From Spirochaetia bacterium (GTDB lineage Bacteria > Spirochaetota > Spirochaetia > UBA9216), in the NCBI GenBank assembly GCA_965140585.1, contig OZ223264.1:236829-300828 (forward strand): 64,000 nt of DNA, read 5' to 3'. Shown piece after piece: positions 9,814-64,000 of the stretch. A model generated the notes under the pieces. That model made no database searches. It was not told where the DNA came from and saw nothing but the letters and a program-made list of their open reading frames with translations. How positions within the stretch are numbered: the first letter of the stretch is position 1; the number at the start of each line of letters is the position of its first letter. Position numbers and translations under genes: made by a program.

Positions 9814-9911
9814 ATATCTATAAAAGCGCTCCCCGGTATAAAAAGGGCCGTGTACATCCCAAATTCCACCCAGTACTATGCTTCCAAGATTAACTCAAGG
9901 AGGTACAAACT

Positions 9912-10241
9912 ATCGAAGATTGGGAAGTTGTCTTCTCATATTCAAGAGAAGATGCAAAGCGTGATGGGGTATTAAAAGACGTAACTTACATTGCTAAAGA
10001 GTGTGGGTTCAAGCTTGATACTGTCATTACAGAGACCTTGTGGCACCTCATAGAAGGTGAAGAAGGTGTAAGGCCATTACTTTTTGATTTGTTGCTGAGA
10101 ATCAAGATGGCAAAGAAAGACAGTTCTATTCTTGTTTATGATTACAAGTGTAGAAAAGGCATGATTAAGGTCAGGTCAGAAGTCGGACCTGGCGATGATG
10201 CGTATCCGGTTCTAACAATCGGAACAATTTATGATTTCTAA
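9912..10241 (+). CDS. Hypothetical protein, open frame 9894-10241 with strong SD but no canonical start (track calls TTG at 10038)
   Basis: AAGGAGG at 9897-9903. Frame is open from 9894, but the first ATG/GTG/TTG is at 10038. Weak resemblance to a serine-recombinase catalytic domain (EEGVRPLLFDLLLRIKMAKKDSSILVYDYKCRKG). Confidence 0.25.
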   Translation: MEDWEVVFSYSREDAKRDGVLKDVTYIAKECGFKLDTVITETLWHLIEGEEGVRPLLFDLLLRIKMAKKDSSILVYDYKCRKGMIKVRSEVGPGDDAYPVLTIGTIYDF

Positions 10242-12074: not shown

Positions 12075-12202
12075 AAGAGATACTCCGAATTATTGTTTGT
12101 TTATTAGTATAACACGGTAGGAAAACACTGTTAAGACGAAAAAAGTAGTGTGGATGTCTAAATAAGTGTAATATAGTTATATCCGATGGAGCTGTATTTA
12201 AA

Positions 12203-13023
12203 ATGAAAAAAATTCCGATAAACGATCAAATTGCGTATTCTATTTCGAACTTAGTTGATGACTCTCAAGTAGGACGTAGAGACCCAAGCCATTATGAAAT
12301 AGAAACGTTGATTAACGAGTGCGCATTATCAAAATATGATCCAAACCAAATCGGGAAAGGCCCTGTTGGGAAGATGAAACGTATTCGTCATGTACTAATA
12401 GGTTCATTAGAAGAAGAAACAGAAAAAGCCGAGGCTTTTGCTTATGGAATTATAAGCTTAATACGTTCTTCTGGTGGATTCCGAGAATTATCTCCCAATT
12501 TTATTGGATGGGAGAATATCCATAATTTGCAAACGGTTTTAAAAGATGAAGGTATTTTGTTGGGTGATGATGGTACCTTAAGTTATAAGATTTTAGATGA
12601 TTTATCAAATTCAGAGAAGACCGATGTTTTATATTCATATATTAAAAGAGCCAGGAAAGGTAGTGAAGATGCTGCTCTGATTGTGGGAACTAGTAAAGAT
12701 TTGATTGAAGCAGTATCAGCTCATGTGATTTTTTAAAATGTGGAACATATCCTACAACTGCAAATTTCCCAACATTACTGGGACAGGCATTTGTTATGTT
12801 GGGCATGGCTACCTCTTATGATGAGGAAAAGAAAGATGAACATCCAAGAAAAACGATTGAACGAAACATGTATGATTTAGCTTGTTCTATTAATAAATTA
12901 CGGAATAAACAAGGAACTGGTCACGGTAGACCTTTTCTTCCAGATTTGTCAAAGACAGAGGCTATTGAAGCTGTACAAGTTATGGGGATTATTGCAGAGA
13001 AGATGTTAAATTGTTTGAGTTGA
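12203..13023 (+). pseudogene. Abortive-infection protein with Abi_C domain, interrupted by -1 frame break at T6A4 tract
   Basis: Downstream piece carries the Abi_C signature LRNKQGTGHG. Upstream ORF ends at a TAA inside GATTTTTTAAAATG (12727-12740). The second frame is open from 12709. A single extra T would fuse the two parts into one roughly 270-aa ORF. Confidence 0.55.
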
Positions 13024-51282: not shown

Positions 51283-51660
51283 ATGGGTACATCAATTACC
51301 TTGTTATCAGATTTCTCGAACATAGTTTTTATCAGGATTCTGGCCAAGAGTAAAGTCGGCCATCTCTTCTTTCAGAAGCTTTATTTTGTCAGGAATAATA
51401 TCATGGCATATGAGTTTGATTTTTCCTGTTTTTTCGGCCAGTTCAATGGCCTTTCCGACTCCTGCCGCGCCGCCTCCGGTGATTTATATGCCTCTTAAAT
51501 CCGGAAATGCTTTCAGATAACTCATCGTAATCTGAAAGGCTGTTTCAGTTTTATCCTGGTTTTCTTCTACCTGCACTATGTCAAGATCGGCATGAAAATC
51601 TTTGATTTTGTTGATGAGTTTAAAAAGCGGGATATGCATATTTCATGTCTGCGCTGTCAC
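51283..51660 (-). pseudogene. Periplasmic-binding-protein (sugar-binding/LacI-type) gene remnant with in-frame stop
   Basis: Minus-strand reading ...AFPDLRGI*ITGGGAAGVGKAIELAEKTGKIKLICHD.... TAA interrupts a PBP-like domain. Confidence 0.35.
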
Positions 51661-51787
51661 GGAAACCCTGTTCATCCGCAGAAGGTTATGATGGTGTTAT
51701 CAGTATTGAGCATGAAGACTCATATATGTCAGTTGAGGAGGGGCTTAACAAGGCTGTTGCCAACATGAAGCAGACTTCTTATTTTTA
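51645..51787 (+). pseudogene. 3' remnant of a sugar-phosphate isomerase/epimerase (TIM-barrel) gene
   Basis: AEGYDGVISIEHEDSYMSVEEGLNKAV is the typical C-terminus of that family. No upstream body. Confidence 0.35.
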
Positions 51788-52084
51788 AACCTGCATCCAA
51801 GCCGAAGGCTTTTGATATAGATGAGAAGTTTCTGAAGTGAAAAGGAGTTCTTAGACCCAAGAACGTAATTTAAAAAAGTTCCATCTGGCCGGTATCGGAT
51901 TCGCTCCTAATCTTCCGGTTCCGGACGTAGTGTTTTTCATAATTATCTCCGGGTAATGCATCACCCATTACTGTTTTTCCACCCCACTTGTGAGAATTTT
52001 CCCATTCACGTTCAATAACTTTTTCAACATCTGCTGTAGGGGCTGTATGTTGTTCAATCCCATCTGGTAAATCTGTCGAGGTTT

Positions 52085-53155
52085 TTAATTCCCCTGCAGA
52101 CGGACATCATTTCCGGTCTTTGCATGACCGAGCGCTCTTTTTACAACAGAGATGCTGCGGTCGTATATATCCAGCGGAACAGGTGCCGGGTGGCCGTCCC
52201 TTTCCTCCATGTGCAAAGGAGAATCGTGCAGGATCAGAGAACCTTGACGGACCTCCGTAGATGATCTCACTGACCAGTGCCAGAGACTGAACTGTCCGCG
52301 GTCCGACTCCTTCCATCAGAAGCGCTTCGCTGAAGTCAGAGAACTCCCTGGTCCCATGCTGCTGCAAGCGCAGCTCCAAGCCGTTTTGAAATTACATCTT
52401 CGGGCGCGAACTTCATGATGTGAAGGAAGTACTATTCGTCTTGACCGCATAAGAGCATCAAGTTCCCGTTTTTGTCTGTCAGGATGTTCCATCAGGAAGT
52501 CGAGTATCCCCTTCCGGTTCGCATCGGCCCGGGAATCGCTTAGATTCAGAAGTTCCCCCTGGTAGGGTCCGACAAACTGCGGTATGAGGATCACTGAAGA
52601 ACGATTTAATTTCAGATGAATGCCAGTGATATCGTCTGGCTTTTCCTGTGTCTTTGTTCATGCCCTGCTGGACAATGGCCCAGTTGCCGTTTTCAGTGAT
52701 AACAAAATTATGTAGATAGATCTGAAAACCGTCCTGAATAACAGGAATTGTCAATTTTAGCGGTAAGCCTGCTTGTCCGGGTGAGCTGTTCGCCGGACAG
52801 ACCGGTTTTCATTGCATATTCGAGCAGTTCCGCCGGAGTATTTCGCGAATATTTTCCCCGGCCCCCCCAGCACGGCAATACCAAGTTCGGAGCTGCGCGG
52901 ATTCAGTCCACGCTGAATTGCCCTCATCACCGAGGTCGTAATTCCGGTATGAATGCCAGTCCATCCATCCCCAGCACAGCACCGAAGGCCTGGAACCAGA
53001 ACGGATCTGATACCCTTCTTAGGACCCTCGTCGGTTCCTCCGTCTGTTATGATTGCTTCTATTATTGATGTTCCAAGAATCATCATACGGTCTGCAAGCC
53101 ATTTCGGTACCGTTCCGTAATGAAGCGGCAAGTCGGCACTGCCTCCGCGTTTCAT
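52085..53155 (-). pseudogene. Degraded HhH-motif gene split over at least 4 overlapping frames
   Basis: Consecutive minus-strand ORFs 52757-53155, 52479-52754, 52316-52594, 52107-52379, 52085-52270 read as one protein broken by frameshifts. GVGPRTVQSLAL is a helix-hairpin-helix. Confidence 0.4.
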
Positions 53156-54298
53156 TTCCCGTAGGTTCCCTGCTGCCTGCGTTCTCTTTTTGCTATGTAC
53201 ATATTCTGGTCTGCGGCATGAAGGAATTCATGAAAGCTTCGGTGCTTATCGGGAGAATAAATGATGTAGCCGGCACTCAATGAAATATTATATGGTTTTT
53301 TATTTTTAGTGTTAACTTCAGAGATTTTATCGTATATACGCTGGATTACAGCATGAATCTCGGCCGGTGCATTTGTCTCAAGCAGAAGCATAAACTCATC
53401 ACCGCCGAATCTGGCAGCTCTGTCCATCCGTTTTATGGAGCTGTTGAGTAGGGCTGCAGTCTGGACAAGTACGGCATCACCTTCGCTGTGACCGTAATCA
53501 TCATTGATTTCTTTAAAGCCGTCCATATCCATCATTACGAGGGTGAAGGAGCCCTTCCTCTCATAATCCTTAATTCTCAGCTGTATATATTCATCAATCT
53601 GCTGACGGTTAAGAAGTCCGGTAAGGTAATCCCGTATCTCCCTCTGTATTTCAAGGAATATGTAAACAAAGGTCACGGCAAGTGCGACTGAAGGCCATAT
53701 AAGGGTTGTTCCATAAAATCTCATCTGTAAAATAGTGCCGGTCACAGGAAGTATACCGAAAAGGGCAACGCCTCTTATGATATCCTTAGAGACCGACCTT
53801 CTGTTTTGGATTACGAGAAAATATGAATATAACAGTGTCAGCAGCTGAATAAGTGCGACAAGAAAAAACTCCGGGACCTCTCTGATAGTTGTTGTCAGCA
53901 TCAATATAAAATATAAACCCGGAGAATGTGGAATAGATTAAAATTAAGGCGGTAAGTATTAGTGGGTAAAGATAGAAAAGCCTTTTTTTCAGCCTGATCT
54001 TAGAGTGGTTCAGCTGGTAGTCTATATAGCACAGCCATAACACCAGCGGAACCGGGCCGGACAATATCAGAATGAAATTAAACAAAAACAGGAAAGTACG
54101 TGAGCCCTGTCCGGGCAGGCCGTCCATAATCCAGGGTAGTGCATCCAATACCAGCAGTACAATAACGCTCCAGCAGAGAAGCAGGAAAATCCTGGTAGTA
54201 ACTGATTTAAAAGACTGTTTAAGCTGGATAACAGCAATAATCATAAAAAGAATTATGATCATAAAAATATCCAGATCAATTAACTGGTATTTCAGCAT
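53152..54298 (-). CDS. Membrane diguanylate cyclase (GGDEF), apparently split by a frameshift near 53.8-53.9 kb
   Basis: C-terminal ORF has RFGGDEFMLLL. The overlapping upstream ORF 53786-54298 supplies further TM helices in another frame. Confidence 0.65.
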
Positions 54299-54361: not shown

Positions 54362-56235
54362 TTGACCTCTCAGTATGAGGGGTTTATAATGATGAAAATG
54401 AAAAAAGTACGCAGTATGTTTTCTATCAGATTTATTCTGGTTTTTATGCTAGTACTGCAGTCTGTATTTGTACTGTCGATTGCCGCCTATCTTTTCCGAT
54501 TTAAAATTAATAATTCTGTAGAGAAGATGGCCGGCAATGTTTTCTATACCCTCTCAGAACATATTAATTCACAGCTAACCGCATACTTCATGGTCCCGGA
54601 AGATATAAACAGGCTGAATCTGACACTTTATAAATCCGGTTATCTTAATAAATCTGATTTTTCATTTATGCAGAAGCATTTTTATAAGCAGTCCGAATTC
54701 TTCCCCTTTGTGAGCAGTATCTATTTTGGTTCAGCAGGCGGCGGTTTTGCAGGCGGCGGTGTTGATTTGCACAATGAACTTTACTATATCATGGGCATTG
54801 AAGAAGGCGGTGACGGTAATTTTTATTTAAAAGAAATGGATTATTCAGAGGAGTTCACCGGTCTGGAATGGACTGCTGAGAATATGTAGACGACCCGTCG
54901 GCCATGGTATGCCGGTGCTGTAGAAAACGGCGGAAATTTTTATTCTGAGCCCTATCTGCTACTGAAGATGAATTGGGAATCTCTGTCAGTGTTCCTGTGT
55001 ACGATGAGACCGGTGCTGACCTGGATGGCGTGTTTTGTACGACTCTCTTCCTGTCTGATATATCCGAATTCCTTGAAAAAATTTTTTACGGAAGCGAGCT
55101 TGTTGATGCGGTAAGGACGTTTTCGATTGTTATACCTGTTGACCTTTTTTTTATTCTTCTGACTTTATTCTATATCAGAAAAACACTTCCTCCTATAAAG
55201 AAGATGATCGAAACAATGAATGCTTTTCCCGAAAAATTTGAAACTGGTTTTGAGGGGAGTCTGCTTAGGGAGTTTTGTGATATAGATCTTGCTTTCCGGC
55301 ATATGGCCCAGAGACTACTTAAAACTCTGGGGAGTCTGAGGCATGAGCAGCAGTTTAATGATGTGATGCTCAATTCCTCTCTGGATATATTTGTCGTTTT
55401 TGATTTACTTTCTGGAAAGACGCTGATATGGAACAGGAAATTCTGTGAGCTCTCCGGCTACACTGATGAAGAAATTAAAGAGTATGGTTCTCCGGAAATC
55501 TGGTATGATAAAGAAGACCTGTACAGATGGACAAACATCTCACTTCCCGAGCTGGTGGAAACAGGGACCAATACAACCACCATGCACCTTATTGCAAAGA
55601 GCGGAGAGCGGATTCCGGTAGAGTATAACTGTTCTGTAATCTATTTTAATGATGAAAAAGAAAGGCCCGTACTTGCTGTAGATCGTGATATGCGTGAAAA
55701 ACTGGCTGTCGAACATAAACTTAAAGATTCTGTCAGTGAGAAAGAAGTCCTGCTAAAAGAGCTGTATCACCGTACAAAAAATAATATAAATGTAATTCTT
55801 TCCATGATTAATCTTCAGATGGGGTTTATTCATGATAAGAAATACAATGCTCTTCTGCGGGAGCTTTCGGATAAAATTCAATCCATGTCGCTGGTTCATA
55901 AAAAGCTCTATGAATCTTCGAACTTGTCAAAGATTGATCTCGGTGAGTATCTGGCGGAATTGTCGAGACTTCTGATGTATTCATACCGTAATGATGACAG
56001 ATTCCTGGCGCTCACCGCTGAAGTTGAAAAGATAAATGTATCGATAGATCTGGCTGTTCCCTGTGGACTTCTGCTGAGTGAACTTCTGTCCAATACTTTC
56101 AAGTATGCTTTTGTTGACTCTGCTTCCGGAAATGTTGAGTTTGAAATTGTAGAAACCGGGGGGCTTGGCTGTATAATAAGATTCCCTGTGAGTTCGGGGA
56201 AGGAACGGAATATTGAAAAAAATACTAATCGTTGA
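54362..56235 (+). pseudogene. dCache-PAS-HisKA_2 sensor histidine kinase, disrupted by in-frame TAG and a frameshift
   Basis: TAG at 54887-54889 is followed in the same frame by TTRRPWYAGAVENGGNFYSEPY (Cache RPWY motif). The Cache continuation GISVSVPVYDETGADLDGV is in another frame (ORF 54973). Downstream HRTKNNINVILSMINLQ is a HisKA_2 H-box, and SNTFKYAF is the ATPase N-box. Confidence 0.6.
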
Positions 56236-56415
56236 AGACGAGGCGTTTGCTGTTATGTCGTTAAAATACTACCTTGAGGAGCAGGGCTTCTCATGCACTA
56301 CCGCCGCTACAGAAGCTGAAGCCCTATCCGAATATTCCAGTTTCTGTCCTGACTTTATCCTGATGGATGTTTCGCTTGCTGACGGCAGTGACGGGATTTC
56401 TGCTGCAGAAAAAAT
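56213..56415 (+). pseudogene. Response-regulator receiver (REC) gene truncated after about 68 aa
   Basis: MKKILIVEDEAFAVMSLKYYLEEQGFSCTTAATEAEALSEYSSFCPDFILMDVSLADGSDGISAAEKI, then an abrupt switch to AT-rich DNA. Confidence 0.55.
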
Positions 56416-57419
56416 AATACCTATAGTTTTTTTAGTGATAATTTCACTCTTTACAAATTGCACAACATCTACATTTACTGATAAGTCAAGTGATGAATTT
56501 ATGGCGTATCTGAAAAATGAAATTACAAACAAAAGTGATGGGAATGCCGCATTGATTTTAGTTGAGAACGGTGAGATCTATGATTCATATTATTTTTCAA
56601 AAGGGAGTCCTGTAAATTCAGATACATTATTTCAAATTGCATCTATCAGTAAATTTGTAACAACTGTTGGTATATTAAAACTTGTTGAACAAGGGCATAT
56701 TGATTTAGATTTTCCTGTTTCAGAGTATTTAACAAGTTGGCAGCTTCCCGAAAGCAAATTTGATAATAATAAAGTGACTATAAGACGTCTATTGAGCCAT
56801 ACCGGCGGACTGATTGATGGTTTAGGGTATAAGGGGTTTTATGAAAATGAAGATGTTCAATCATTGGAGGATTCGTTAACTTTCGCAAAGGATAGATTCT
56901 GGACAAAAGGAATCACCAAGGTTGGAATAGAACCCGGAACAAGATTTAAATATTCAGGTGGCGGATTCACGCTCCTGCAGCTCGTAATTGAAGAAGTAAC
57001 AGATAAATCTTTTAACTCCTTCATGAAATCAGAAATTTTTGAACCACTGGATATGGACTCATCAACATTTATAAAAGAAGATGCTGAAAAAATGAATTTG
57101 TCTGAATGTTTTACGAATACAGGTAAAATAGTTGAATATATGAAATTTACATCACTTTCTGCTGCTTCTTTGTTCATTAGCAGTGCTGATATGTATAAAT
57201 TTATAAAACTGTTTTTGAAAAATTGAAATAAAGAACCTTATTACAATAATTTATTCGGAGCTGGATTCCGGAGATAAAATATTCGGACATGACGGCGGGA
57301 ATTATACTGCCGTAAATACTACCGTAAGAATCAACCCTGACAGTAATGACGCTATAATTATTTTTTCAACAGGCGGACACGGCATTGCCAGTGCTCTGGG
57401 AAAAGCTTGGGTTAAATAG
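56416..57419 (+). pseudogene. Class-C beta-lactamase-family serine hydrolase (lipoprotein), frameshifted, on an AT-rich insertion
   Basis: Lipobox IPIVFLVIISLFTNC, SxxK (ASISKF), YSGGGF (YxN-like), LLSHTGGL. The C-terminal GHDGGNYTA...GKAWVK* lies in the +1 frame after the stop at 57224-57226. Fused in-frame to the REC fragment. Confidence 0.55.
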
Positions 57420-57455
57420 CAAAAAGGATAATAGTAGAGCTTCCTGATGTATTTT

Positions 57456-57731
57456 CTATTTCTTACCGGTTAACTTGATAATATGGTATCCGAACTGGGT
57501 TCTTACCACATCGGATATGCTTCCGACACCCATGCGGCTGCATGCTCTTTCAAACTCGGGAACCATCTTTCCGGGGCCGAACCAGCCAAGATCTCCGCCC
57601 TTTGATTTGCTTGGACATGTTGAAAAATCACGTGCTATTGCTTCGAAATTTGCGCCCTGCTTGATCTTTCTCTGAAGTTCCTGGGCCTGACTCTGGCTTT
57701 TAACCAGTATATGACTTGCTTTCCATTCCAT
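57456..57731 (-). CDS. ppiC: Parvulin-type peptidyl-prolyl cis-trans isomerase
   Basis: ASHILVKS...CPSKSKGGDLGWFGPGKMVPEFE...FGYHIIK. Start placed at the internal Met (MEWKASHIL). Confidence 0.8.
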   Translation of the reverse strand: MEWKASHILVKSQSQAQELQRKIKQGANFEAIARDFSTCPSKSKGGDLGWFGPGKMVPEFERACSRMGVGSISDVVRTQFGYHIIKLTGKK

Positions 57732-57777
57732 AATAGTGATATTAAACAAAAAAAATACAATTTTCAAGTTAGGAGAT

Positions 57778-58653
57778 ATGGAAGAAAATTGTTATATTAA
57801 TAGCATGAGCAGGAATTACATCGGAACACATGTCTCTACATACGGAGGGGTTGAAAACGCACCGCTTCATGCCGAACGGATAGGCGCGGAAGGCTTTGCG
57901 TTATTTACCCGCAATCAGCGGAGGTGGGAATCTCCTGCTCTTACAGAGGAAAGTATAAGCCTATTTAAACAGAGAATGAAGGAAGGCGGATTCACTCCGG
58001 ATGTTGTTCTGCCTCACAATTCCTACCTGATAAACCTGGCATCTCCTGATCCCGAAAAGTCAAAAAAGTCTTTTGATTCATATATTGATGAGCTCAACCG
58101 CGTTAATCTGCTTGGCCTTAAATATCTCAACATTCATCCGGGCAGTACTACGGGCCTTATCAGCTTTGAGCAGGGTATTGAAAACATCAGTACAGCGGTA
58201 AACCGGGCCAATAAAATGGTTCCCGATGTAATTACCGTACTTGAGACGACATCAGGACAGAAGAATAAGATCGGCGGACGCTTTGAAGAGATTGCTGCAA
58301 TAATGGACAGGATTAAACAGCCGGATCGCGTTGCTATCTGCATAGATACCTGTCATGTCTACGGCGCCGGCTATGACGTTTCAACTGAAGAGGGCTGTAA
58401 TGATATGCTTGAGCAGTTTGACAGGCTGCTTGGACTCTCCAACCTGAAGGGAATGCATCTAAATGATTCTAAAAGAGGTCTTGGTGAGCATATCGACCGG
58501 CATGAAAACATAGGGAAGGGCTGCATAGGTGAAACCGGATTCAGGTATCTTCTGAACGACAAGCGTTTAAAAGGCCTTCCGATGATTCTTGAAACGCCGA
58601 ATCCGAAGGAGTGGGAGGCTGAAATAGCACTTCTGCATTCATTTCTTGAATGA
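57778..58653 (+). CDS. nfo: Endonuclease IV (AP endonuclease, xylose-isomerase-like TIM barrel)
   Basis: IGTHVSTYGG, LPHNSYLINLASPD, LNIHPGS, VLETTSGQ, ICIDTCHVYGAGYD. Alternative start 57805. Confidence 0.85.
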   Translation: MEENCYINSMSRNYIGTHVSTYGGVENAPLHAERIGAEGFALFTRNQRRWESPALTEESISLFKQRMKEGGFTPDVVLPHNSYLINLASPDPEKSKKSFDSYIDELNRVNLLGLKYLNIHPGSTTGLISFEQGIENISTAVNRANKMVPDVITVLETTSGQKNKIGGRFEEIAAIMDRIKQPDRVAICIDTCHVYGAGYDVSTEEGCNDMLEQFDRLLGLSNLKGMHLNDSKRGLGEHIDRHENIGKGCIGETGFRYLLNDKRLKGLPMILETPNPKEWEAEIALLHSFLE

Positions 58654-58710
58654 CTCGTCCATAAGTGGTAAAATTAGTACAAACTGGGTGGGGAGAATAT
58701 AAAAATCTCA

Positions 58711-60507
58711 ATGGCAAAACAAAAGAAATCCGCATACGATGAAAGCAAGATAAAAACGCTAAGCTCTCTTGAGCACATCCGTCTGCGTACCGGTATGTAT
58801 ATCGGACGACTAGGAGACGGTTCAAACCTTGATGACGGTATATACGTCCTTTTGAAGGAAGTTGTTGACAACAGTATTGATGAGTTCATCATGGGCAACG
58901 GTAAGAAAATAGTAATCAAGGTTGAGGACAACAAGGTTGTAGTTCGTGACTACGGCCGGGGTATTCCGCTTGGAAAGGTTATTGATTGTGTTTCAATTAT
59001 AAATACAGGTGCAAAATACAACGACGACGTATTTCAGTTTTCGGTCGGTCTTAACGGTGTCGGTACCAAGGCGGTAAACGCGCTTTCCATAAACTTCAGA
59101 GTCGTTTCATTCCGTGACGGCAAGTTCTTCGAGGCAATCTTTGAAAGAGGTATCCTGCAGAAGAAACGCGAAGGAAAGAAGGCCGGCGAGCCCGACGGAA
59201 CCTACGTTGAGTTTATTCCGGACAAGGAAATCTTCGGAGAGTACACATTCAACCATGAATACATTGATCAGCGTATCTGGAATTACGCATACCTGAACAG
59301 CGGGTTGACGCTTTATTTTAACAAGAAAAAATATGAATCTCAGAACGGGCTTCTTGATCTTCTCTCGGCTGAAGTAGGAAATACCACCATTTATGATATC
59401 GGCTACTACAAGGGCGAACAGCTTGAGTTCTCCTTTGCTCACACAAATACCTACGGAGAAAACTACTTCTCCTTTGTAAACGGTCAGTACACCAGCGACG
59501 GCGGTACGCATCAGAGCGCTTTCCGCGAGGGCTTTCTAAAGGGGGTCAATGAGTTCTACAAGAAGAACTACAACGGTGTGGATGCCCGTGAAGGGCTTGC
59601 CGGTGCTGTTTCAATAAAGCTGAAAAATCCGGTCTTTGAAAGCCAGACGAAGAATAAGCTTGGTAATACTGAAATCAGGGCCTGGGTTGTAAACGAAGTC
59701 CGGTCCGGTGTTGTTGATTATCTGCACAAAAATAAGGAAGCCGCCGACAAGCTTGAGAACAAGATTGTCAGCAATGAAAAGCTGCGGAAGGAACTTAATG
59801 AAGTAAAGAAGGAAGCCCGTGAGGCAGCCAAAAAAGTTGCGCTTAAGATTCCCAACCTGAAAGACTGTAAATTTCATCTGGGTGACAAGAAGGGTGAAGA
59901 ATCCATGATCTTCATCACCGAGGGTCAGTCTGCATCTGGCTCAATAGTCTCTGCCCGGGATGTCTACAGGCAGGCAGTTTTTTCACTTCGCGGTAAGCCG
60001 TTCAATGTATTCGGAAAGAAGCGGGCGGCAATCTATAAGAATGAAGAGCTTTACAATCTGATGATGGCCCTTGGAGTTGAGAATGAAATTGACAACCTCC
60101 GCTACGGCAAACTGATAATCGCAACTGATGCAGATAATGATGGTTTTCATATTCGGAATCTTCTGCTTACATTCTTTCTCACCTTCTTTGAGGAACTTGC
60201 AACCGCAGGACGTATATATATCCTTGAGACACCGCTTTTCAGAGTAAGAAACAAGAAAGAGACCCACTACTGCTATAATATTGCAGAACGTGACGAGGCT
60301 ATGGCCAAACTCGCGGGCCCCGAGGTTACCAGATTTAAGGGACTTGGTGAGATTTCTCCGAAAGAATTCGGACAGTTCATCGGTGAGGATATGCGGCTGG
60401 TTAAAGTCGATGTGAAAACGATGAAAGATGTTCCGAATACACTTGAGTTTTTTATGGGTAAAAATACACCCCAGAGACGAAGCTTTATTATGGAGAACCT
60501 TATCTGA
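58711..60507 (+). CDS. parE: DNA topoisomerase IV subunit B (short spirochaete-type ParE)
   Basis: GHKL ATPase (EVVDNSIDE, SVGLNGVGTKAVNALS). Toprim (EGQSASGS, IATDADNDGFHI). 598 aa, like Borrelia ParE. Confidence 0.8.
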   Translation: MAKQKKSAYDESKIKTLSSLEHIRLRTGMYIGRLGDGSNLDDGIYVLLKEVVDNSIDEFIMGNGKKIVIKVEDNKVVVRDYGRGIPLGKVIDCVSIINTGAKYNDDVFQFSVGLNGVGTKAVNALSINFRVVSFRDGKFFEAIFERGILQKKREGKKAGEPDGTYVEFIPDKEIFGEYTFNHEYIDQRIWNYAYLNSGLTLYFNKKKYESQNGLLDLLSAEVGNTTIYDIGYYKGEQLEFSFAHTNTYGENYFSFVNGQYTSDGGTHQSAFREGFLKGVNEFYKKNYNGVDAREGLAGAVSIKLKNPVFESQTKNKLGNTEIRAWVVNEVRSGVVDYLHKNKEAADKLENKIVSNEKLRKELNEVKKEAREAAKKVALKIPNLKDCKFHLGDKKGEESMIFITEGQSASGSIVSARDVYRQAVFSLRGKPFNVFGKKRAAIYKNEELYNLMMALGVENEIDNLRYGKLIIATDADNDGFHIRNLLLTFFLTFFEELATAGRIYILETPLFRVRNKKETHYCYNIAERDEAMAKLAGPEVTRFKGLGEISPKEFGQFIGEDMRLVKVDVKTMKDVPNTLEFFMGKNTPQRRSFIMENLI

Positions 60508-62429
60508 TGTCATACGTAAAAAAACTTTTTAACGATAATTTTCTGGAATATGCATCTTACGTAATCAAGGACAGGGCCATTCCCGATCTCCAGGACGGAC
60601 TAAAACCTGTACAGAGGCGAATAATTCATTCGCTGTTTGAAATGGATGACGGTAAATTTCATAAGGTCGCAAATGTTGTAGGCCACTGTATGAAATACCA
60701 TCCCCATGGTGATGCTTCCATTTATTCAGCTCTGGTCGTTCTTGCCAACAAGGAACTGTTTGTAGACAAGCAGGGAAACTTCGGCAATATCCTCACCGGC
60801 GACCCGGCATCTGCTGCCAGGTATATTGAGTGCCGTGCTCTCCCCCTTGCAAAGAGGGTTCTCTATAATCCCGAAATTACAGAGTATACCGATTCCTATG
60901 ATGGAAGAAACAAGGAGCCGATCGCTTTCAGGGCAAAGATTCCGGTAATTTTGATTCACGGTGCTGAAGGAATTGCGGTAGGTATGTCCACTAAGATTCT
61001 GCCGCATAACTATGAAGAAGTTCTTGGCGCTGTAAAAACATGTCTTTTGGGAAAGGCCTTCAAGCTTTATCCTGATTTTCCCACCGGCGGCTATGTTGAT
61101 GTCTCCAACTATGAAGACGGAAACGGAAAGGTTCTTGTCCGCGCCAAGCTTGATACTTCTGATGAGAAGCGCATAGTTATCCGTGAGATTCCATTCGGAA
61201 CAACAACCGAGTCGCTTATGAACTCGATTGAGACCGCCGCCAGACAGAACAAGATTAAGGTTTCAAGTATTACCGACTTCACAACTGAGAAGGCCGAGAT
61301 AGAAATCAAACTTGCCCGCGGAGTTCATACCGAAGAGGTCGTTGATTCACTTTATGCCTTTACCGACTGCGAAGTTTCAATATCTGTAAATCTCCTTGTT
61401 ATCCGCAAGGGGCTTCCTGTAATAATGACTGTCACCGAGATTATCAAGTATTATGCCGCCCAGATTGTTGAAGTCCTCCGTGACGAGCTGAAGCTTGAGG
61501 AGCGCGGTCTTCTTGATAAGATACATGCAAGAACCCTTGAGAGAATCTTTATCGAGGAAAGAATCTACAAGCGGATAGAAACGATGAAAACCAGGGACGG
61601 TGTAATTAAAACCGTTATTACAGGTTTTGAACCGTATATGGATGAAATAAAGCGTGAAGTTACCGAGGATGACGTTGAAAGACTTCTCAAGATTCCTATC
61701 AGAAGGATTTCTCTATACGACATCAATAAGGCCAGAGATGAAATGGCCCAGCTTCAGGCAAGGCTTAAGGAAGTGCGACATCACCTGCGTCACATTACTG
61801 AATACGCTGTGTCTTTTGTCGATGCGCTGCTTCAGGGAGTTGCCGAAGAGCAGAAACGCAAAACTGAGGTTATTTCCTTTGACAAGGTCGATGTCCGGGA
61901 GGTTGCGCAGCGTAACCTGAGTCTGGCCTATGATGACAACACGGGTTACCTCGGCTACGATGTTAAATCGGGCAAAACTCTTTTTAATGTATCAAACTAT
62001 GACCGTATACTGGTTATCAGGGCAAGCGGGGTGTATTCGGTAATTGATGTGCCTGACAAGCTCTTTGTAGACAAAGGTATGCTCTTCTGCGGACTTGCCG
62101 ACAAGGATGAGATGGCTGAAACAATCTTCAGCATCCTTTATAAAAACAATAAAACAGGCTATGCCCACCTCAAGCGCTGTAAGATTGAGAAGTTCATACT
62201 TGATAAATCATACGAACTGATTCCCGAGGGAAACAAGATAATCAAACTGACAACCAAAGAGGATATTGAGGCCGCTGTTACTTATAAAGAAAAGCCGAGA
62301 TTGAAGGTTCTGGATGAAAGTTTCGACGTTTCGGGCTATCTTGTTAAGGGTGTTAAGGCTGCCGGAGTCAGACTTTCCGCGAAAGAAATAAAGAGCGCCA
62401 AGTTTGTGAAAAAAAAGTCAAAAAAATAG
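60507..62429 (+). CDS. parC: DNA topoisomerase IV subunit A (short ParC lacking canonical CTD)
   Basis: RAIPDLQDGLKPVQRR, YHPHGD. Active-site AARYIECRAL. 640 aa, like Borrelia ParC. ATGA-type coupling to parE. Confidence 0.8.
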   Translation: MSYVKKLFNDNFLEYASYVIKDRAIPDLQDGLKPVQRRIIHSLFEMDDGKFHKVANVVGHCMKYHPHGDASIYSALVVLANKELFVDKQGNFGNILTGDPASAARYIECRALPLAKRVLYNPEITEYTDSYDGRNKEPIAFRAKIPVILIHGAEGIAVGMSTKILPHNYEEVLGAVKTCLLGKAFKLYPDFPTGGYVDVSNYEDGNGKVLVRAKLDTSDEKRIVIREIPFGTTTESLMNSIETAARQNKIKVSSITDFTTEKAEIEIKLARGVHTEEVVDSLYAFTDCEVSISVNLLVIRKGLPVIMTVTEIIKYYAAQIVEVLRDELKLEERGLLDKIHARTLERIFIEERIYKRIETMKTRDGVIKTVITGFEPYMDEIKREVTEDDVERLLKIPIRRISLYDINKARDEMAQLQARLKEVRHHLRHITEYAVSFVDALLQGVAEEQKRKTEVISFDKVDVREVAQRNLSLAYDDNTGYLGYDVKSGKTLFNVSNYDRILVIRASGVYSVIDVPDKLFVDKGMLFCGLADKDEMAETIFSILYKNNKTGYAHLKRCKIEKFILDKSYELIPEGNKIIKLTTKEDIEAAVTYKEKPRLKVLDESFDVSGYLVKGVKAAGVRLSAKEIKSAKFVKKKSKK

Positions 62430-62497
62430 TGAATCCGGTAACAGCACAGCCTTTTCATGGTGTTCAATAGATAGACAATGGAAAGGGACGGATTTCA

Positions 62498-62974
62498 TTG
62501 AAGATTGACGTAGAACAATTTTACAGAAAATACGGTCCCATGGTGTTCAGGCGCTGCAAATCGCTTCTAAATGATGAAGATCGCGCTCATGACGCCATGC
62601 AGGAAGTATTTGTGAAGGTACTCAGAAAAGCAGACTCACTTAACGACAGAGCTCCATCAAGCCTTCTGTATACTATAGCAACAAATGTCTGTCTTAATGA
62701 ACTCCGTAAAGTCAACCGTCTTGTAGACAGCGGTAATGAGATAATTGAAACCGTTGCAGGGACTGAAAGTCATGAGAGAATAGTACTGACAAACCATTTT
62801 CTTGAACAGCTTTTCAGTCTTGAAAAAGAATCTACAAGAACAATGGCTGTGCTGCATTATGTTGAGGGTTATACCCTTGAAGAAACAGCACGTGTTATGA
62901 ACATGTCCGTTTCCGGTGTCCGAAAAAGGCTAAGAGGCCTCCGTGAGAGGGGTCTTGCGCTTAAGGAGGAATAA
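62498..62974 (+). CDS. ECF-family RNA polymerase sigma factor
   Basis: Region 2 (DAMQEVFVKVLRK). Region 4 HTH (LEETARVMNMSVSGVRKRL). Confidence 0.85.
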   Translation: MKIDVEQFYRKYGPMVFRRCKSLLNDEDRAHDAMQEVFVKVLRKADSLNDRAPSSLLYTIATNVCLNELRKVNRLVDSGNEIIETVAGTESHERIVLTNHFLEQLFSLEKESTRTMAVLHYVEGYTLEETARVMNMSVSGVRKRLRGLRERGLALKEE

Positions 62975-62977
62975 TCT

Positions 62978-63769
62978 ATGAAACCTGGAAAGCTGTTTCT
63001 TGAGCAATACAAACTGGGCGAACTGACAGATGAAGAAAAAAAGCAGTTCGAAGACAGTTTTGAAGATCCGAATGAACTTGAAAGACTCCTGAGAGAACTG
63101 GATGACTCAGATAAAGATTTCTTTAAAAAATTTCCCGTAGATGAGACAGTCGATTCAATAAAGGAAAGAAGTGAACAAAGCAAAGGCTCAAAGATTCTGA
63201 AGTTTCCGGTTTTCCGGATTTCAGCCCTTGCAGCCGCTGCAGCGGTTGTTATATTCGGCTTCAGCTTCTTTTACTCTCCTGTGAGCACAGGAGGCACAGG
63301 CTCGACTCCGGATGTAAATGCAACTGAAAGAATTAAGGGCATGAAGCCCTCTCTTAAAATATACCGGAGCCTCAGCGGTTCTGCTGAAATCCTTGAAAAC
63401 AGGGATACCGTTGCCGAAAAGGATCTTCTGCAGATTGAATACATTGCCGGCGGCTACAGGTACGGCATGATTTTTTCAATTGACGGACGGGGTACTGTTA
63501 CCATGCACTATCCCTCATACAGCGGAATAAAACCAGAGCTCGATAACAACGGGGCTGTTCTTCTACCGTATGCCTATGAGCTTGATGATGCTCCGGAATT
63601 TGAAAGATTCTTCTTTATAGCCGGAGGAGACTGGTTCAATGCCGATGAAGTTCTTGACGCAGCTTATGAGCTGGCTTCATCAAACAGTTCGGCAAGACGT
63701 AGTTTTCTTGATATCCCTGAAGAATACTACCAGACAACAATCTTATTAAAGAAGGGGGCTGAAAGATGA
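62978..63769 (+). CDS. Putative anti-sigma factor (single TM)
   Basis: Immediately downstream of the ECF sigma gene. TM helix ISALAAAAAVVIFGFSFF. Confidence 0.5.
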   Translation: MKPGKLFLEQYKLGELTDEEKKQFEDSFEDPNELERLLRELDDSDKDFFKKFPVDETVDSIKERSEQSKGSKILKFPVFRISALAAAAAVVIFGFSFFYSPVSTGGTGSTPDVNATERIKGMKPSLKIYRSLSGSAEILENRDTVAEKDLLQIEYIAGGYRYGMIFSIDGRGTVTMHYPSYSGIKPELDNNGAVLLPYAYELDDAPEFERFFFIAGGDWFNADEVLDAAYELASSNSSARRSFLDIPEEYYQTTILLKKGAER

Positions 63770-64000
63770 AAAGCCTTGTAAAAGATGTCCTGAAGAAGAT
63801 GCTTCTTCAGATAAGTATAATCGGATTTATATGCCTGCTTTTTCTTGTATCAGCGGCTGGCGCTTCTGCACAAACCTCAGTTATGAGAAGATACGCAGTT
63901 TATGTAGGCTCCAATTACGGCGGTCACGAAAGAGTAACCCTTTCATACGCTGTAACTGATGCAAGGGCTCTTTCTGATGTTATGCAGCGGCTCGGCGGTG
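63769..64000 (+). CDS. Secreted caspase-like (C14) domain protein, 3' truncated by window edge
   Basis: Signal peptide, then YAVYVGSNYGG...LSYAVTDARALSDVM resembling caspase-domain starts. Confidence 0.35.

What the first reader, a model, noticed from the sequence alone, without database searches (positions are those of the whole stretch)
54362..56235. Sensor kinase inactivated by a stop codon placed precisely inside the Cache RPWY motif plus a downstream frameshift
The first ORF ends ...EWTAENM-TAG. The same frame continues TTRRPWYAGAVENGGNFYSEPYLLLK, the hallmark dCache motif. The next conserved Cache stretch (GISVSVPVYDETGADLDGVFCTTLF) is in a different frame, the ORF beginning 54973. Two lesions within about 90 nt therefore inactivate a dCache-PAS-HisKA_2 kinase. 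Its cognate REC gene directly downstream is also destroyed (separate finding), so an entire signalling module has been pseudogenised.
Basis: seen in the sequence. Interest (0 to 1): 0.5.

Follow-up and report, generated by a model that had tools for sequence, protein, structure and literature searches.

The report
Broken sensor kinase gene, decayed block
This is an ordinary dead gene: a membrane sensor kinase of a spirochaete that carries four separate disabling mutations and sits in a 6-kb stretch where seven neighbouring genes look damaged.

Summary
ORF 54362..54889 ends at TAG (54887-54889). The same frame continues TTRRPWYAGAVENGG. The rest of the protein is in another frame (ORF 54973..56235).

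A related Spirochaetia MAG encodes the intact orthologue as one 736-aa protein, P0001 (dCache_1, PAS, HisKA_2, HATPase_c). It has the same neighbours on both sides.

DNA alignment shows four lesions in the window, not two:
- CAG to TAG at codon 166.
- A 4-bp deletion between 54959 and 54960.
- A 207-bp in-frame deletion at 55083/55084, which removes 69 aa of the Cache domain.
- A 156-bp in-frame deletion at 56136/56137, which removes the ATP-binding G1 and G2 boxes.

The partner receiver gene keeps only 68 of 119 codons. It is fused to a decayed serine-hydrolase fragment. The GGDEF, DUF763 and AP_endonuc_2 genes upstream also appear broken.

dN/dS is low in every kinase domain (0.06-0.19), so the inactivation is recent compared with the split from the relative.

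One caveat remains. The DUF763 gene carries about 11 single-base insertions yet has dN/dS 0.037. That looks more like a local consensus error than real decay, so the small lesions need read-level confirmation.

Verdict: a real-looking, ordinary pseudogene in a variable region. Interest is low.

The parts
54389..54886 (+). Kinase pseudogene, segment 1: start codon, TM1 and the first part of the extracytoplasmic dCache_1 domain (orthologue codons 1-165)
   Evidence: Alignment to P0001; tblastn frame 2
54887..54889 (+). Lesion 1: TAG where the orthologue has CAG (Gln166). It lies four codons before R-P-W-Y.
54890..54959 (+). Segment 2, same frame as segment 1: TTRRPWYAGAVENGGNFYSEPYL (orthologue codons 167-189)
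54959..54960 (+). Lesion 2: 4-bp deletion (orthologue CTGC[TGAT]TACTG). It shifts the reading frame and is not in a homopolymer.
54960..55083 (+). Segment 3, shifted frame: TEDELGISVSVPVYDETGADLDGVFCTTLFLSDISEFL, the end of the membrane-distal Cache module
   Evidence: dCache_1 / MCP-like_PDC_1 partial matches
55083..55084 (+). Lesion 3: 207-bp in-frame deletion. It removes orthologue residues about 230-298 (69 aa), the part of the sensor domain just before TM2.
   Evidence: The dCache_1 score falls from 48.8 bits in the orthologue to 27.5 bits (cut-off 45).
55084..56136 (+). Segment 4: TM2, linker, PAS, HisKA_2 (with the His of ELYHRTKNN) and the N-box of the ATPase domain
   Evidence: Pfam PAS_9 27.9 bits, HisKA_2 70.6 bits; alignment
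56136..56137 (+). Lesion 4: 156-bp in-frame deletion. It removes orthologue residues about 652-703 (52 aa), including DDGVG (G1) and GLGL (G2).
   Evidence: No HATPase_c match in the window copy, against 32.8 bits in the orthologue. Twelve distant homologues read directly all keep this segment.
56137..56235 (+). Segment 5: C-terminal end of the kinase and its TGA stop. It overlaps the receiver gene start.
56213..56416 (+). Remnant of the partner single-domain response regulator: 68 of 119 codons. Asp52 is kept, and the C-terminal half is lost.
   Evidence: Response_reg profile 1-64 of 111, against 1-110 in the orthologue. DNA homology to L001/L002 ends at 56416.
56417..57452 (+). Fragment of a beta-lactamase-family serine hydrolase gene fused in frame to the receiver remnant. 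It is itself a pseudogene. It replaces the receiver 3' half and a 4HBT thioesterase gene present in the relative.
   Evidence: Pfam Beta-lactamase 16-232 of 329. Best homologue P0069 at 54% identity; about 9 N-terminal residues missing; frame change and 26-aa gap near 57226. No homology to L002.
53152..54298 (-). GGDEF diguanylate cyclase gene split in two by one extra A in an A-run at 53863
   Evidence: The orthologue is a single 381-aa ORF.
51873..53155 (-). DUF763 gene broken by about 10 single-base insertions and a TCCA duplication. The rest of the sequence is highly conserved.
   Evidence: The orthologue is a 423-aa ORF.
51580..51837 (+). Two short remnants of an AP_endonuc_2 (xylose isomerase-like TIM barrel) gene with about 590 bp deleted between them. 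Similarity to the relative ends on the left at about 51580-51607.

Best explanation
The window holds the dead copy of a membrane sensor histidine kinase.

Intact form, seen in the related genome: TM1, an extracytoplasmic double-Cache ligand-binding domain, TM2, a linker, PAS, a HisKA_2 dimerisation and phospho-acceptor domain, and an ATP-binding HATPase_c domain. By inference from these families, it autophosphorylates on His530 and passes the phosphate to the 119-aa single-domain receiver encoded right after it. The two genes overlap by 23 nt.

The window copy has four independent lesions:
- A nonsense codon at residue 166.
- A 4-bp frameshifting deletion 70 nt further on.
- A 69-codon deletion of the membrane-proximal part of the sensor.
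- A 52-codon deletion of the G1 and G2 ATP-binding boxes.

Either the nonsense codon or the frameshift alone would stop a full-length protein from being made. The G1/G2 deletion would abolish autophosphorylation (inferred). The receiver partner is cut after codon 68.

The module lies in a variable region just upstream of the conserved parE-parC genes. In this lineage that region has been rearranged at both ends, and every gene in it looks damaged. The likeliest history is that the module became dispensable and decayed under relaxed selection, recently compared with the split from the sister genome.

Shown: the lesions, the orthology and the domain losses. Inferred: the loss of function, the order of events and the cause, namely relaxed selection.
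For: - Intact single-ORF orthologue with conserved synteny on both sides (DUF763 and GGDEF to the left; REC, PpiC, nfo, parE, parC and the ECF sigma gene to the right).
- Exact lesions from the DNA alignment.
- Frame changes confirmed by tblastn.
- Domain loss: dCache_1 falls from 48.8 to 27.5 bits (cut-off 45) and HATPase_c from 32.8 bits to no match.
- The twelve distant HisKA_2 kinases read directly all carry the segment deleted here, so the deletion is derived in the window lineage.
- The lesions are not typical consensus errors: a transition, a 4-bp deletion outside any homopolymer, and deletions of 207 and 156 bp.
- The adjacent 6.5 kb (57452-64000) aligns with the relative with no frameshift, only one 3-bp in-frame gap.
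- TAG is an ordinary stop in 7 of 34 long ORFs of the window.
- The receiver, the hydrolase fragment, the GGDEF gene and the AP_endonuc_2 gene are damaged too.
- More distant relatives (ParE 84% identical) have other genes at this position, so the region is variable.
Against: - dN/dS between the window copy and the orthologue is low in every domain (0.06-0.19; 0.11 overall), including downstream of the stop.
- A relative-rate test against distant homologues shows no significant speed-up in the window lineage (13 against 6 informative sites).
- So the substitution pattern carries no signature of decay. Either the inactivation is recent or some lesions are not real.
- DUF763, two genes upstream, carries about 11 single-base insertions and no deletion, yet has 96.9% aa identity and dN/dS 0.037. 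That is hard to explain by natural decay and suggests the consensus may be unreliable nearby.
- Only one assembly of this genome exists in the collections searched, so no lesion is independently confirmed.
Confidence: 0.8

Rival explanations
1. Assembly or consensus artefact. Some or all of the lesions, above all the single-base stop and the 4-bp deletion, are errors of a long-read metagenome assembly, for example a stretch covered by one noisy read or polished with reads from a related strain. The real gene would then be less damaged or intact.
For: - The DUF763 gene 1.3-2.6 kb upstream has about 11 single-base insertions plus a 4-bp duplication, no deletions and no nonsense codon once the insertions are removed, with dN/dS 0.037. 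This pattern fits errors better than decay.
- Small-indel density is far higher there than in the neighbouring genes (12 in 1.27 kb, against 1 in 1.15 kb and 1 in 2.2 kb). My own binomial estimate is P about 1e-5.
- The kinase itself shows purifying-selection statistics throughout.
- There is no second assembly of this genome to compare with.
Against: - The kinase lesions are of other kinds than the DUF763 insertions. No single-base insertion occurs in the 1.86 kb of the kinase.
- Deletions of 207 and 156 bp with clean junctions, and the replacement of the receiver 3' end by 1 kb of unrelated DNA, are not consensus noise.
- The 6.5-kb right flank has no frameshift.
- Even if the stop and the 4-bp deletion were errors, the loss of G1/G2 and of half the receiver would still disable the module.
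Confidence: 0.13
2. The pieces are functional as they stand. The 175-aa N-terminal ORF and the 420-aa PAS-HisKA_2 ORF would be expressed as separate proteins, for instance a kinase-dead phosphatase or scaffold. In that case the split is an adaptation, not decay.
For: - Both large deletions are multiples of three (207 and 156 bp), which would be compatible with a translated product. Chance alone gives this 1 time in 9.
- dN/dS is low downstream of the frameshift.
- The 420-aa ORF was called as a protein in public annotation (P0002).
Against: - The 420-aa ORF starts at a TTG inside the Cache domain with no obvious ribosome-binding site.
- It lacks the ATP-binding boxes, and its only evident partner, the receiver, is truncated and fused to a broken hydrolase gene.
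- The sole orthologue is a single ORF.
- The low dN/dS is explained equally well by recent inactivation.
Confidence: 0.04
3. Programmed recoding. The TAG is read through or decoded as an amino acid, and the frame change is a programmed ribosomal frameshift, giving a full-length protein.
For: Only that the stop and the frameshift are close together (70 nt) and the sequence between them is conserved.
Against: - TAG ends 7 of 34 long ORFs in the window and 5 of 18 genes in the relative.
- The orthologue has CAG and no frameshift at these sites, so the features are not conserved.
- No slippery heptamer is visible at 54950-54975.
- A recoded product would still lack the ATP-binding boxes.
Confidence: 0.01

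Closest known systems
dCache_1-containing sensor histidine kinases of the HisKA_2/HWE type, as represented by the intact orthologue P0001 in Spirochaetia MAG CAXXYH010000004.1
   Same: Same gene by synteny, with 85% aa identity over aligned columns. The domain order is the same: TM, dCache_1, TM, PAS, HisKA_2, HATPase_c. A single-domain receiver follows and overlaps the kinase stop.
   Different: The window copy has a nonsense codon and a frameshift. It has also lost 69 aa of the sensor and 52 aa of the ATPase domain, so it no longer meets the Pfam thresholds for dCache_1 or HATPase_c.
Pseudogenised two-component systems in bacteria whose niche has narrowed (general knowledge, e.g. Mycobacterium leprae, Yersinia pestis, insect symbionts; recalled from memory, not checked here)
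   Same: Accessory signalling genes are inactivated by a mix of nonsense mutations, small indels and larger deletions. The damage comes in clusters of neighbouring genes, and sequence conservation stays high when the loss is recent.
   Different: Pseudogenes are not shown to be common across this genome. Outside the 51.5-57.5 kb block most of the window looks intact. This is a local decayed block in a variable region, not evidence of genome-wide reduction.

Membership tests
Bacterial pseudogene (working definition: reading frame disrupted relative to an intact orthologue) | An intact orthologue exists at the syntenic position | tested here: met
   P0001, 736 aa, single ORF, same neighbours on both sides
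Bacterial pseudogene (working definition: reading frame disrupted relative to an intact orthologue) | Premature stop, frameshift or loss of a large part of the coding sequence | tested here: met
   TAG at codon 166, a 4-bp deletion, and 207-bp and 156-bp deletions; 367 of 2211 bp lost
Bacterial pseudogene (working definition: reading frame disrupted relative to an intact orthologue) | Substitution pattern of relaxed selection (dN/dS rising towards 1, faster evolution than the orthologue) | tested here: not met
   dN/dS 0.11 overall and 0.06-0.19 by domain. Relative-rate test 13 against 6, not significant. This is compatible only with recent inactivation.
Bacterial pseudogene (working definition: reading frame disrupted relative to an intact orthologue) | Lesions confirmed in reads or in a second assembly | not testable with these tools
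   No reads are available. Only one assembly carries this sequence, and the genome is not indexed for contig look-up.
dCache_1 sensor domain (Pfam PF02743) | Match at or above the Pfam gathering score (45 bits) covering both modules | tested here: not met
   The repaired window protein scores 27.5 bits, profile 98-162 of 240 only. The orthologue scores 48.8 bits. The 69-aa deletion lies just before TM2.
HisKA_2 histidine kinase (Pfam PF07568) | Full-length HisKA_2 match with the conserved His in the H-R-x-K-N-N motif | tested here: met
   70.6 bits, profile 1-76 of 76. ELYHRTKNN is present and identical to the orthologue.
HATPase_c ATP-binding domain (Pfam PF02518) | N, G1 (DxGxG) and G2 (GxGxG-like) boxes present | tested here: not met
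   No Pfam match in the window copy. The N-box is kept, but DDGVG and GLGL lie in the 52-aa deletion. The orthologue scores 32.8 bits.
Response regulator receiver (Pfam PF00072), partner gene | Complete receiver fold (profile about 1-111) | tested here: not met
   Profile 1-64 of 111 only, then fused to unrelated sequence. The orthologue covers 1-110.
Programmed recoding site | The stop or shift is conserved in relatives and comes with a recoding signal | tested here: not met
   The orthologue has CAG and no shift. TAG is used as a normal stop.

The most novel reading that the evidence does not exclude
The damage in this block may not be ordinary decay. DUF763 carries about 11 single-base insertions with no deletions and almost no amino-acid change. 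Next to it sit a kinase with two clean in-frame deletions and a receiver fused in frame to a foreign gene. If the reads confirm these changes, the pattern would point to a real, very recent, locally concentrated and insertion-biased mutational process of unknown cause. Such a process would run against the usual deletion bias of bacterial genomes.
Probability: 0.07. Interest if true: 0.55.

Novelty: new member of a known kind. Interest (0 to 1): 0.15.

Why it matters
It matters little beyond annotation. The two ORFs should be annotated as one pseudogene, and public collections already list the 420-aa piece as a protein (P0002). The receiver-hydrolase fusion ORF (P0068) should not be read as a new domain architecture.

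The block is a small, clean example of recent loss of an accessory signalling module in a variable region next to parE-parC. The DUF763 insertion cluster is a warning about local consensus quality in this assembly.

Tried and rejected
- Looked for more relatives. The genome-contig scan gave one locus. The metagenome-contig scan gave only distant kinases at 35-41% identity. A ParE search showed that only two genomes form this clade.
- The next relatives (ParE 84% identical) have different genes upstream of parE, so they could not show the ancestral state of the lesions.
- Tried to find the source record of the window through four of its proteins. None is indexed. The cluster look-up gave no names or accessions.
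- A literature search for the relative's accessions found nothing.
- A relative-rate test with distant homologues had little power (13 against 6).
- A repeat search around the block found no insertion sequence or long repeat that could explain the rearrangements.
- Checked other closely spaced same-strand ORF pairs in the window for hidden frameshifts. Those with Pfam matches are mostly separate intact genes (AzlC/AzlD, GntR/Band_7, YchJ, TRL). Four pairs at 38.6-41.7 kb gave no or uninformative matches and were not resolved.
- Rejected an alternative genetic code, because TAG is a common stop here.
- Rejected a separately encoded Cache gene, because the orthologue is one ORF.

Full report
**Observation.** ORF 54362..54889 ends ...EWTAENM followed by TAG at 54887-54889. 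The same frame continues TTRRPWYAGAVENGGNFYSEPYLLLK. The stretch GISVSVPVYDETGADLDGVFCTTLF is in another frame, in the ORF listed from TTG 54973 to the stop at 56235. A protein stitched together from the pieces matches HisKA_2 (70.6 bits) and PAS_9 (27.9 bits). It matches dCache_1 only in part (27.5 bits, profile 98-162 of 240, below the 45-bit cut-off) and has no HATPase_c match at all.

**Orthologue.** A search of the large protein collection found one close full-length relative, P0001. It is 736 aa with dCache_1, HisKA_2 and HATPase_c, and it sits on a 2.62-Mb contig. The same search returned the window's own 420-aa ORF as P0002, on a 946-kb contig. The genome scan placed P0001 in a Spirochaetia MAG (CAXXYH010000004.1, locus L001), and L002 gives its called genes.
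- Gene order there is AP_endonuc_2, DUF763 (minus strand), GGDEF (minus strand), kinase, 119-aa receiver, 4HBT thioesterase, PpiC (minus strand), nfo, parE, parC, ECF sigma.
- The window matches this order from about 51.6 kb to its end, so the two kinase genes are orthologues.
- P0001 passes the Pfam cut-offs for dCache_1 (48.8 bits), HisKA_2 (72.3) and HATPase_c (32.8).

**Lesions.** Protein and DNA alignments show four differences that disable the window copy.
1. Codon 166 is TAG where the relative has CAG. This is four codons before R-P-W-Y.
2. Four bases are missing between 54959 and 54960 (relative CTGC[TGAT]TACTG), which shifts the frame.
3. 207 bp are missing at 55083/55084. These are 69 codons, relative residues about 230-298, which lie between the matched part of the Cache domain and TM2.
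4. 156 bp are missing at 56136/56137. These are 52 codons, relative residues about 652-703, which hold DDGVG and GLGL, the G1 and G2 ATP-binding boxes.

The twelve distant HisKA_2 kinases whose sequences I read keep the segment removed by lesion 4. The deletion is therefore derived in the window lineage. tblastn of the relative's proteins on the window reproduces the frame changes. The likely start codon is the ATG at 54389 or 54392, not the TTG at 54362.

**Neighbours.**
- **Receiver gene.** It starts at 56213, overlapping the kinase stop as in the relative. It is homologous only up to 56416, so 68 of 119 codons remain (Response_reg profile 1-64 of 111).
- **Hydrolase fragment.** From 56417 to 57452 the window has 1036 bp unrelated to the relative. 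They encode a fragment of a beta-lactamase-family serine hydrolase fused in frame to the receiver stump. Its best homologue (P0069, 54% identity) shows that about nine N-terminal residues are missing and that there is a frame change with a 26-residue gap near 57226. The receiver 3' half and the thioesterase gene of the relative are absent.
- **GGDEF gene.** It is split by one extra A at 53863.
- **DUF763 gene.** It is broken by about ten single-base insertions and a TCCA duplication.
- **AP_endonuc_2 gene.** Only two short pieces remain, and similarity to the relative stops at about 51.58-51.61 kb.
- **Rest of the window.** From 57452 to 64000 the window aligns to the relative at 94% identity, with a single 3-bp in-frame gap and no frameshift. 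Elsewhere most of the window looks intact by ORF structure, coding potential and Pfam checks of suspicious ORF pairs, although four pairs at 38.6-41.7 kb could not be resolved.

The damage is therefore a local block of about 5.9 kb. It is not evidence of genome-wide decay.

**Selection signals.** I computed Nei-Gojobori estimates between the window and the relative, dropping inserted bases.
- Kinase: dN/dS 0.11 (dS 0.72), ranging from 0.06 to 0.19 across its domains, including those downstream of the stop.
- Other genes of the block: DUF763 0.037, GGDEF 0.044, receiver stump 0.034.
- Intact flank genes: 0.004 to 0.2.
- Relative-rate count against 65 distant kinases: 13 window-derived against 6 relative-derived changes, after removing six misaligned junction sites. 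This is not significant.

Most of the divergence therefore accumulated while the genes were under constraint. If the lesions are real, they are recent compared with the split.

**The DUF763 problem.** The small indels in DUF763 are all insertions. No nonsense codon appears once they are removed, and the repaired protein is 96.9% identical to the orthologue. The insertion density is 12 events in 1.27 kb. GGDEF has 1 in 1.15 kb, the kinase has 1 in 2.2 kb, and the right flank has none in 6.5 kb. My own binomial estimate gives about 1e-5 for such clustering. Natural decay would bring many more amino-acid changes and, from general knowledge of bacterial genomes, more deletions than insertions. The simplest reading is a local consensus fault, such as a stretch supported by one noisy long read or polished with mixed strains. 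I could not test this. It weakens confidence in nearby single-base calls. The kinase lesions are of other kinds, and there is no single-base insertion anywhere in the kinase.

**Rivals.**
- **Alternative genetic code or programmed recoding.** This is rejected. TAG ends 7 of 34 long ORFs in the window, the relative has neither the stop nor the shift, and any recoded product would still lack the ATP-binding boxes.
- **A naturally split Cache gene.** This is rejected because the orthologue is a single ORF.
- **Functional fragments.** This is unlikely. The 420-aa ORF begins at a TTG inside the sensor domain, cannot bind ATP, and has lost its partner.
- **Assembly error.** This remains possible for the two small lesions (about 0.13). 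It would not rescue the module, because the two large deletions and the receiver truncation would remain.

**Context.** ParE of the window and of the relative fall in one 90% cluster with only two members. The next relatives carry ParE proteins 84% identical to the window's. They have the same genes downstream (parC, ECF sigma, a 263-aa protein, Peptidase_C14) but different genes upstream and no such kinase module. The module therefore lies in a variable region beside a conserved core, which fits an accessory function that can be lost.

**Mechanism.**
- Shown: the orthology, the four lesions and the domain losses.
- Inferred from the families involved: the intact protein senses an extracytoplasmic ligand through its double-Cache domain, autophosphorylates on the His of ELYHRTKNN using ATP bound by the N, G1 and G2 boxes, and transfers the phosphate to Asp52 of the single-domain receiver.
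- In the window no full-length protein can be made. Any product would lack ATP binding, and the receiver lacks its C-terminal half. The signalling pair is dead.

**Verdict.** Novelty is low. The one odd item is the DUF763 insertion cluster, which most likely reflects assembly quality.

Noticed in passing
window 51776-53025 (DUF763, minus strand) and 53863 (GGDEF): There are 12 single-base insertions plus one TCCA duplication relative to the sister genome, no deletions, and no nonsense codon once they are removed. DUF763 is 96.9% identical at protein level with dN/dS 0.037. That is too many frameshifts for so little amino-acid change. It is either a local consensus error or an unusual insertion-biased process.
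   Followed up: partly
window 56213-57226: The 337-aa ORF that looks like a receiver-beta-lactamase fusion protein is listed as a protein in public collections (P0068). It is a junction between a truncated receiver gene and a 5'-truncated, frameshifted serine hydrolase gene. It is not a real domain architecture.
   Followed up: yes
window 56417-57452: The serine hydrolase fragment has no counterpart in the sister genome. Its best homologue, P0069, is only 54% identical. The named homologues further down the list are from marine Flavobacteriia and Alphaproteobacteria. It is probably a foreign insertion that later decayed.
   Followed up: partly
window 51310-51483 (minus strand): A 58-aa ORF matches only positions 192-240 of the 258-position Peripla_BP_4 profile. 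It looks like a remnant of a periplasmic binding protein gene at the left edge of the decayed block, where synteny with the relative breaks.
   Followed up: no
window 51.6-64 kb against L002: Synonymous divergence from the sister genome varies more than tenfold along 12 kb. dS is 0.07-0.09 for the ECF sigma gene and the 263-aa gene, 0.23-0.26 for PpiC, nfo and parE, 0.51 for parC, and 0.4-1.1 in the decayed block. This suggests a recombination mosaic.
   Followed up: no
window 12149-13023: Two overlapping same-strand ORFs (195 aa and 104 aa) lie in different frames, and the second carries a complete Abi_C domain. This may be another frameshifted gene. A DUF6573 match at 9894-10238 covers only positions 6-54 of the 138-position profile.
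   Followed up: no
L006 642-1406, L007 642-1406 and L008 7442-8233: More distant relatives carry a short (254-263 aa) HisKA_2-only protein a few kb upstream of parE, next to an Fe-ADH gene. No HATPase_c hit is recorded for it. It was not compared with the kinase studied here.
   Followed up: no
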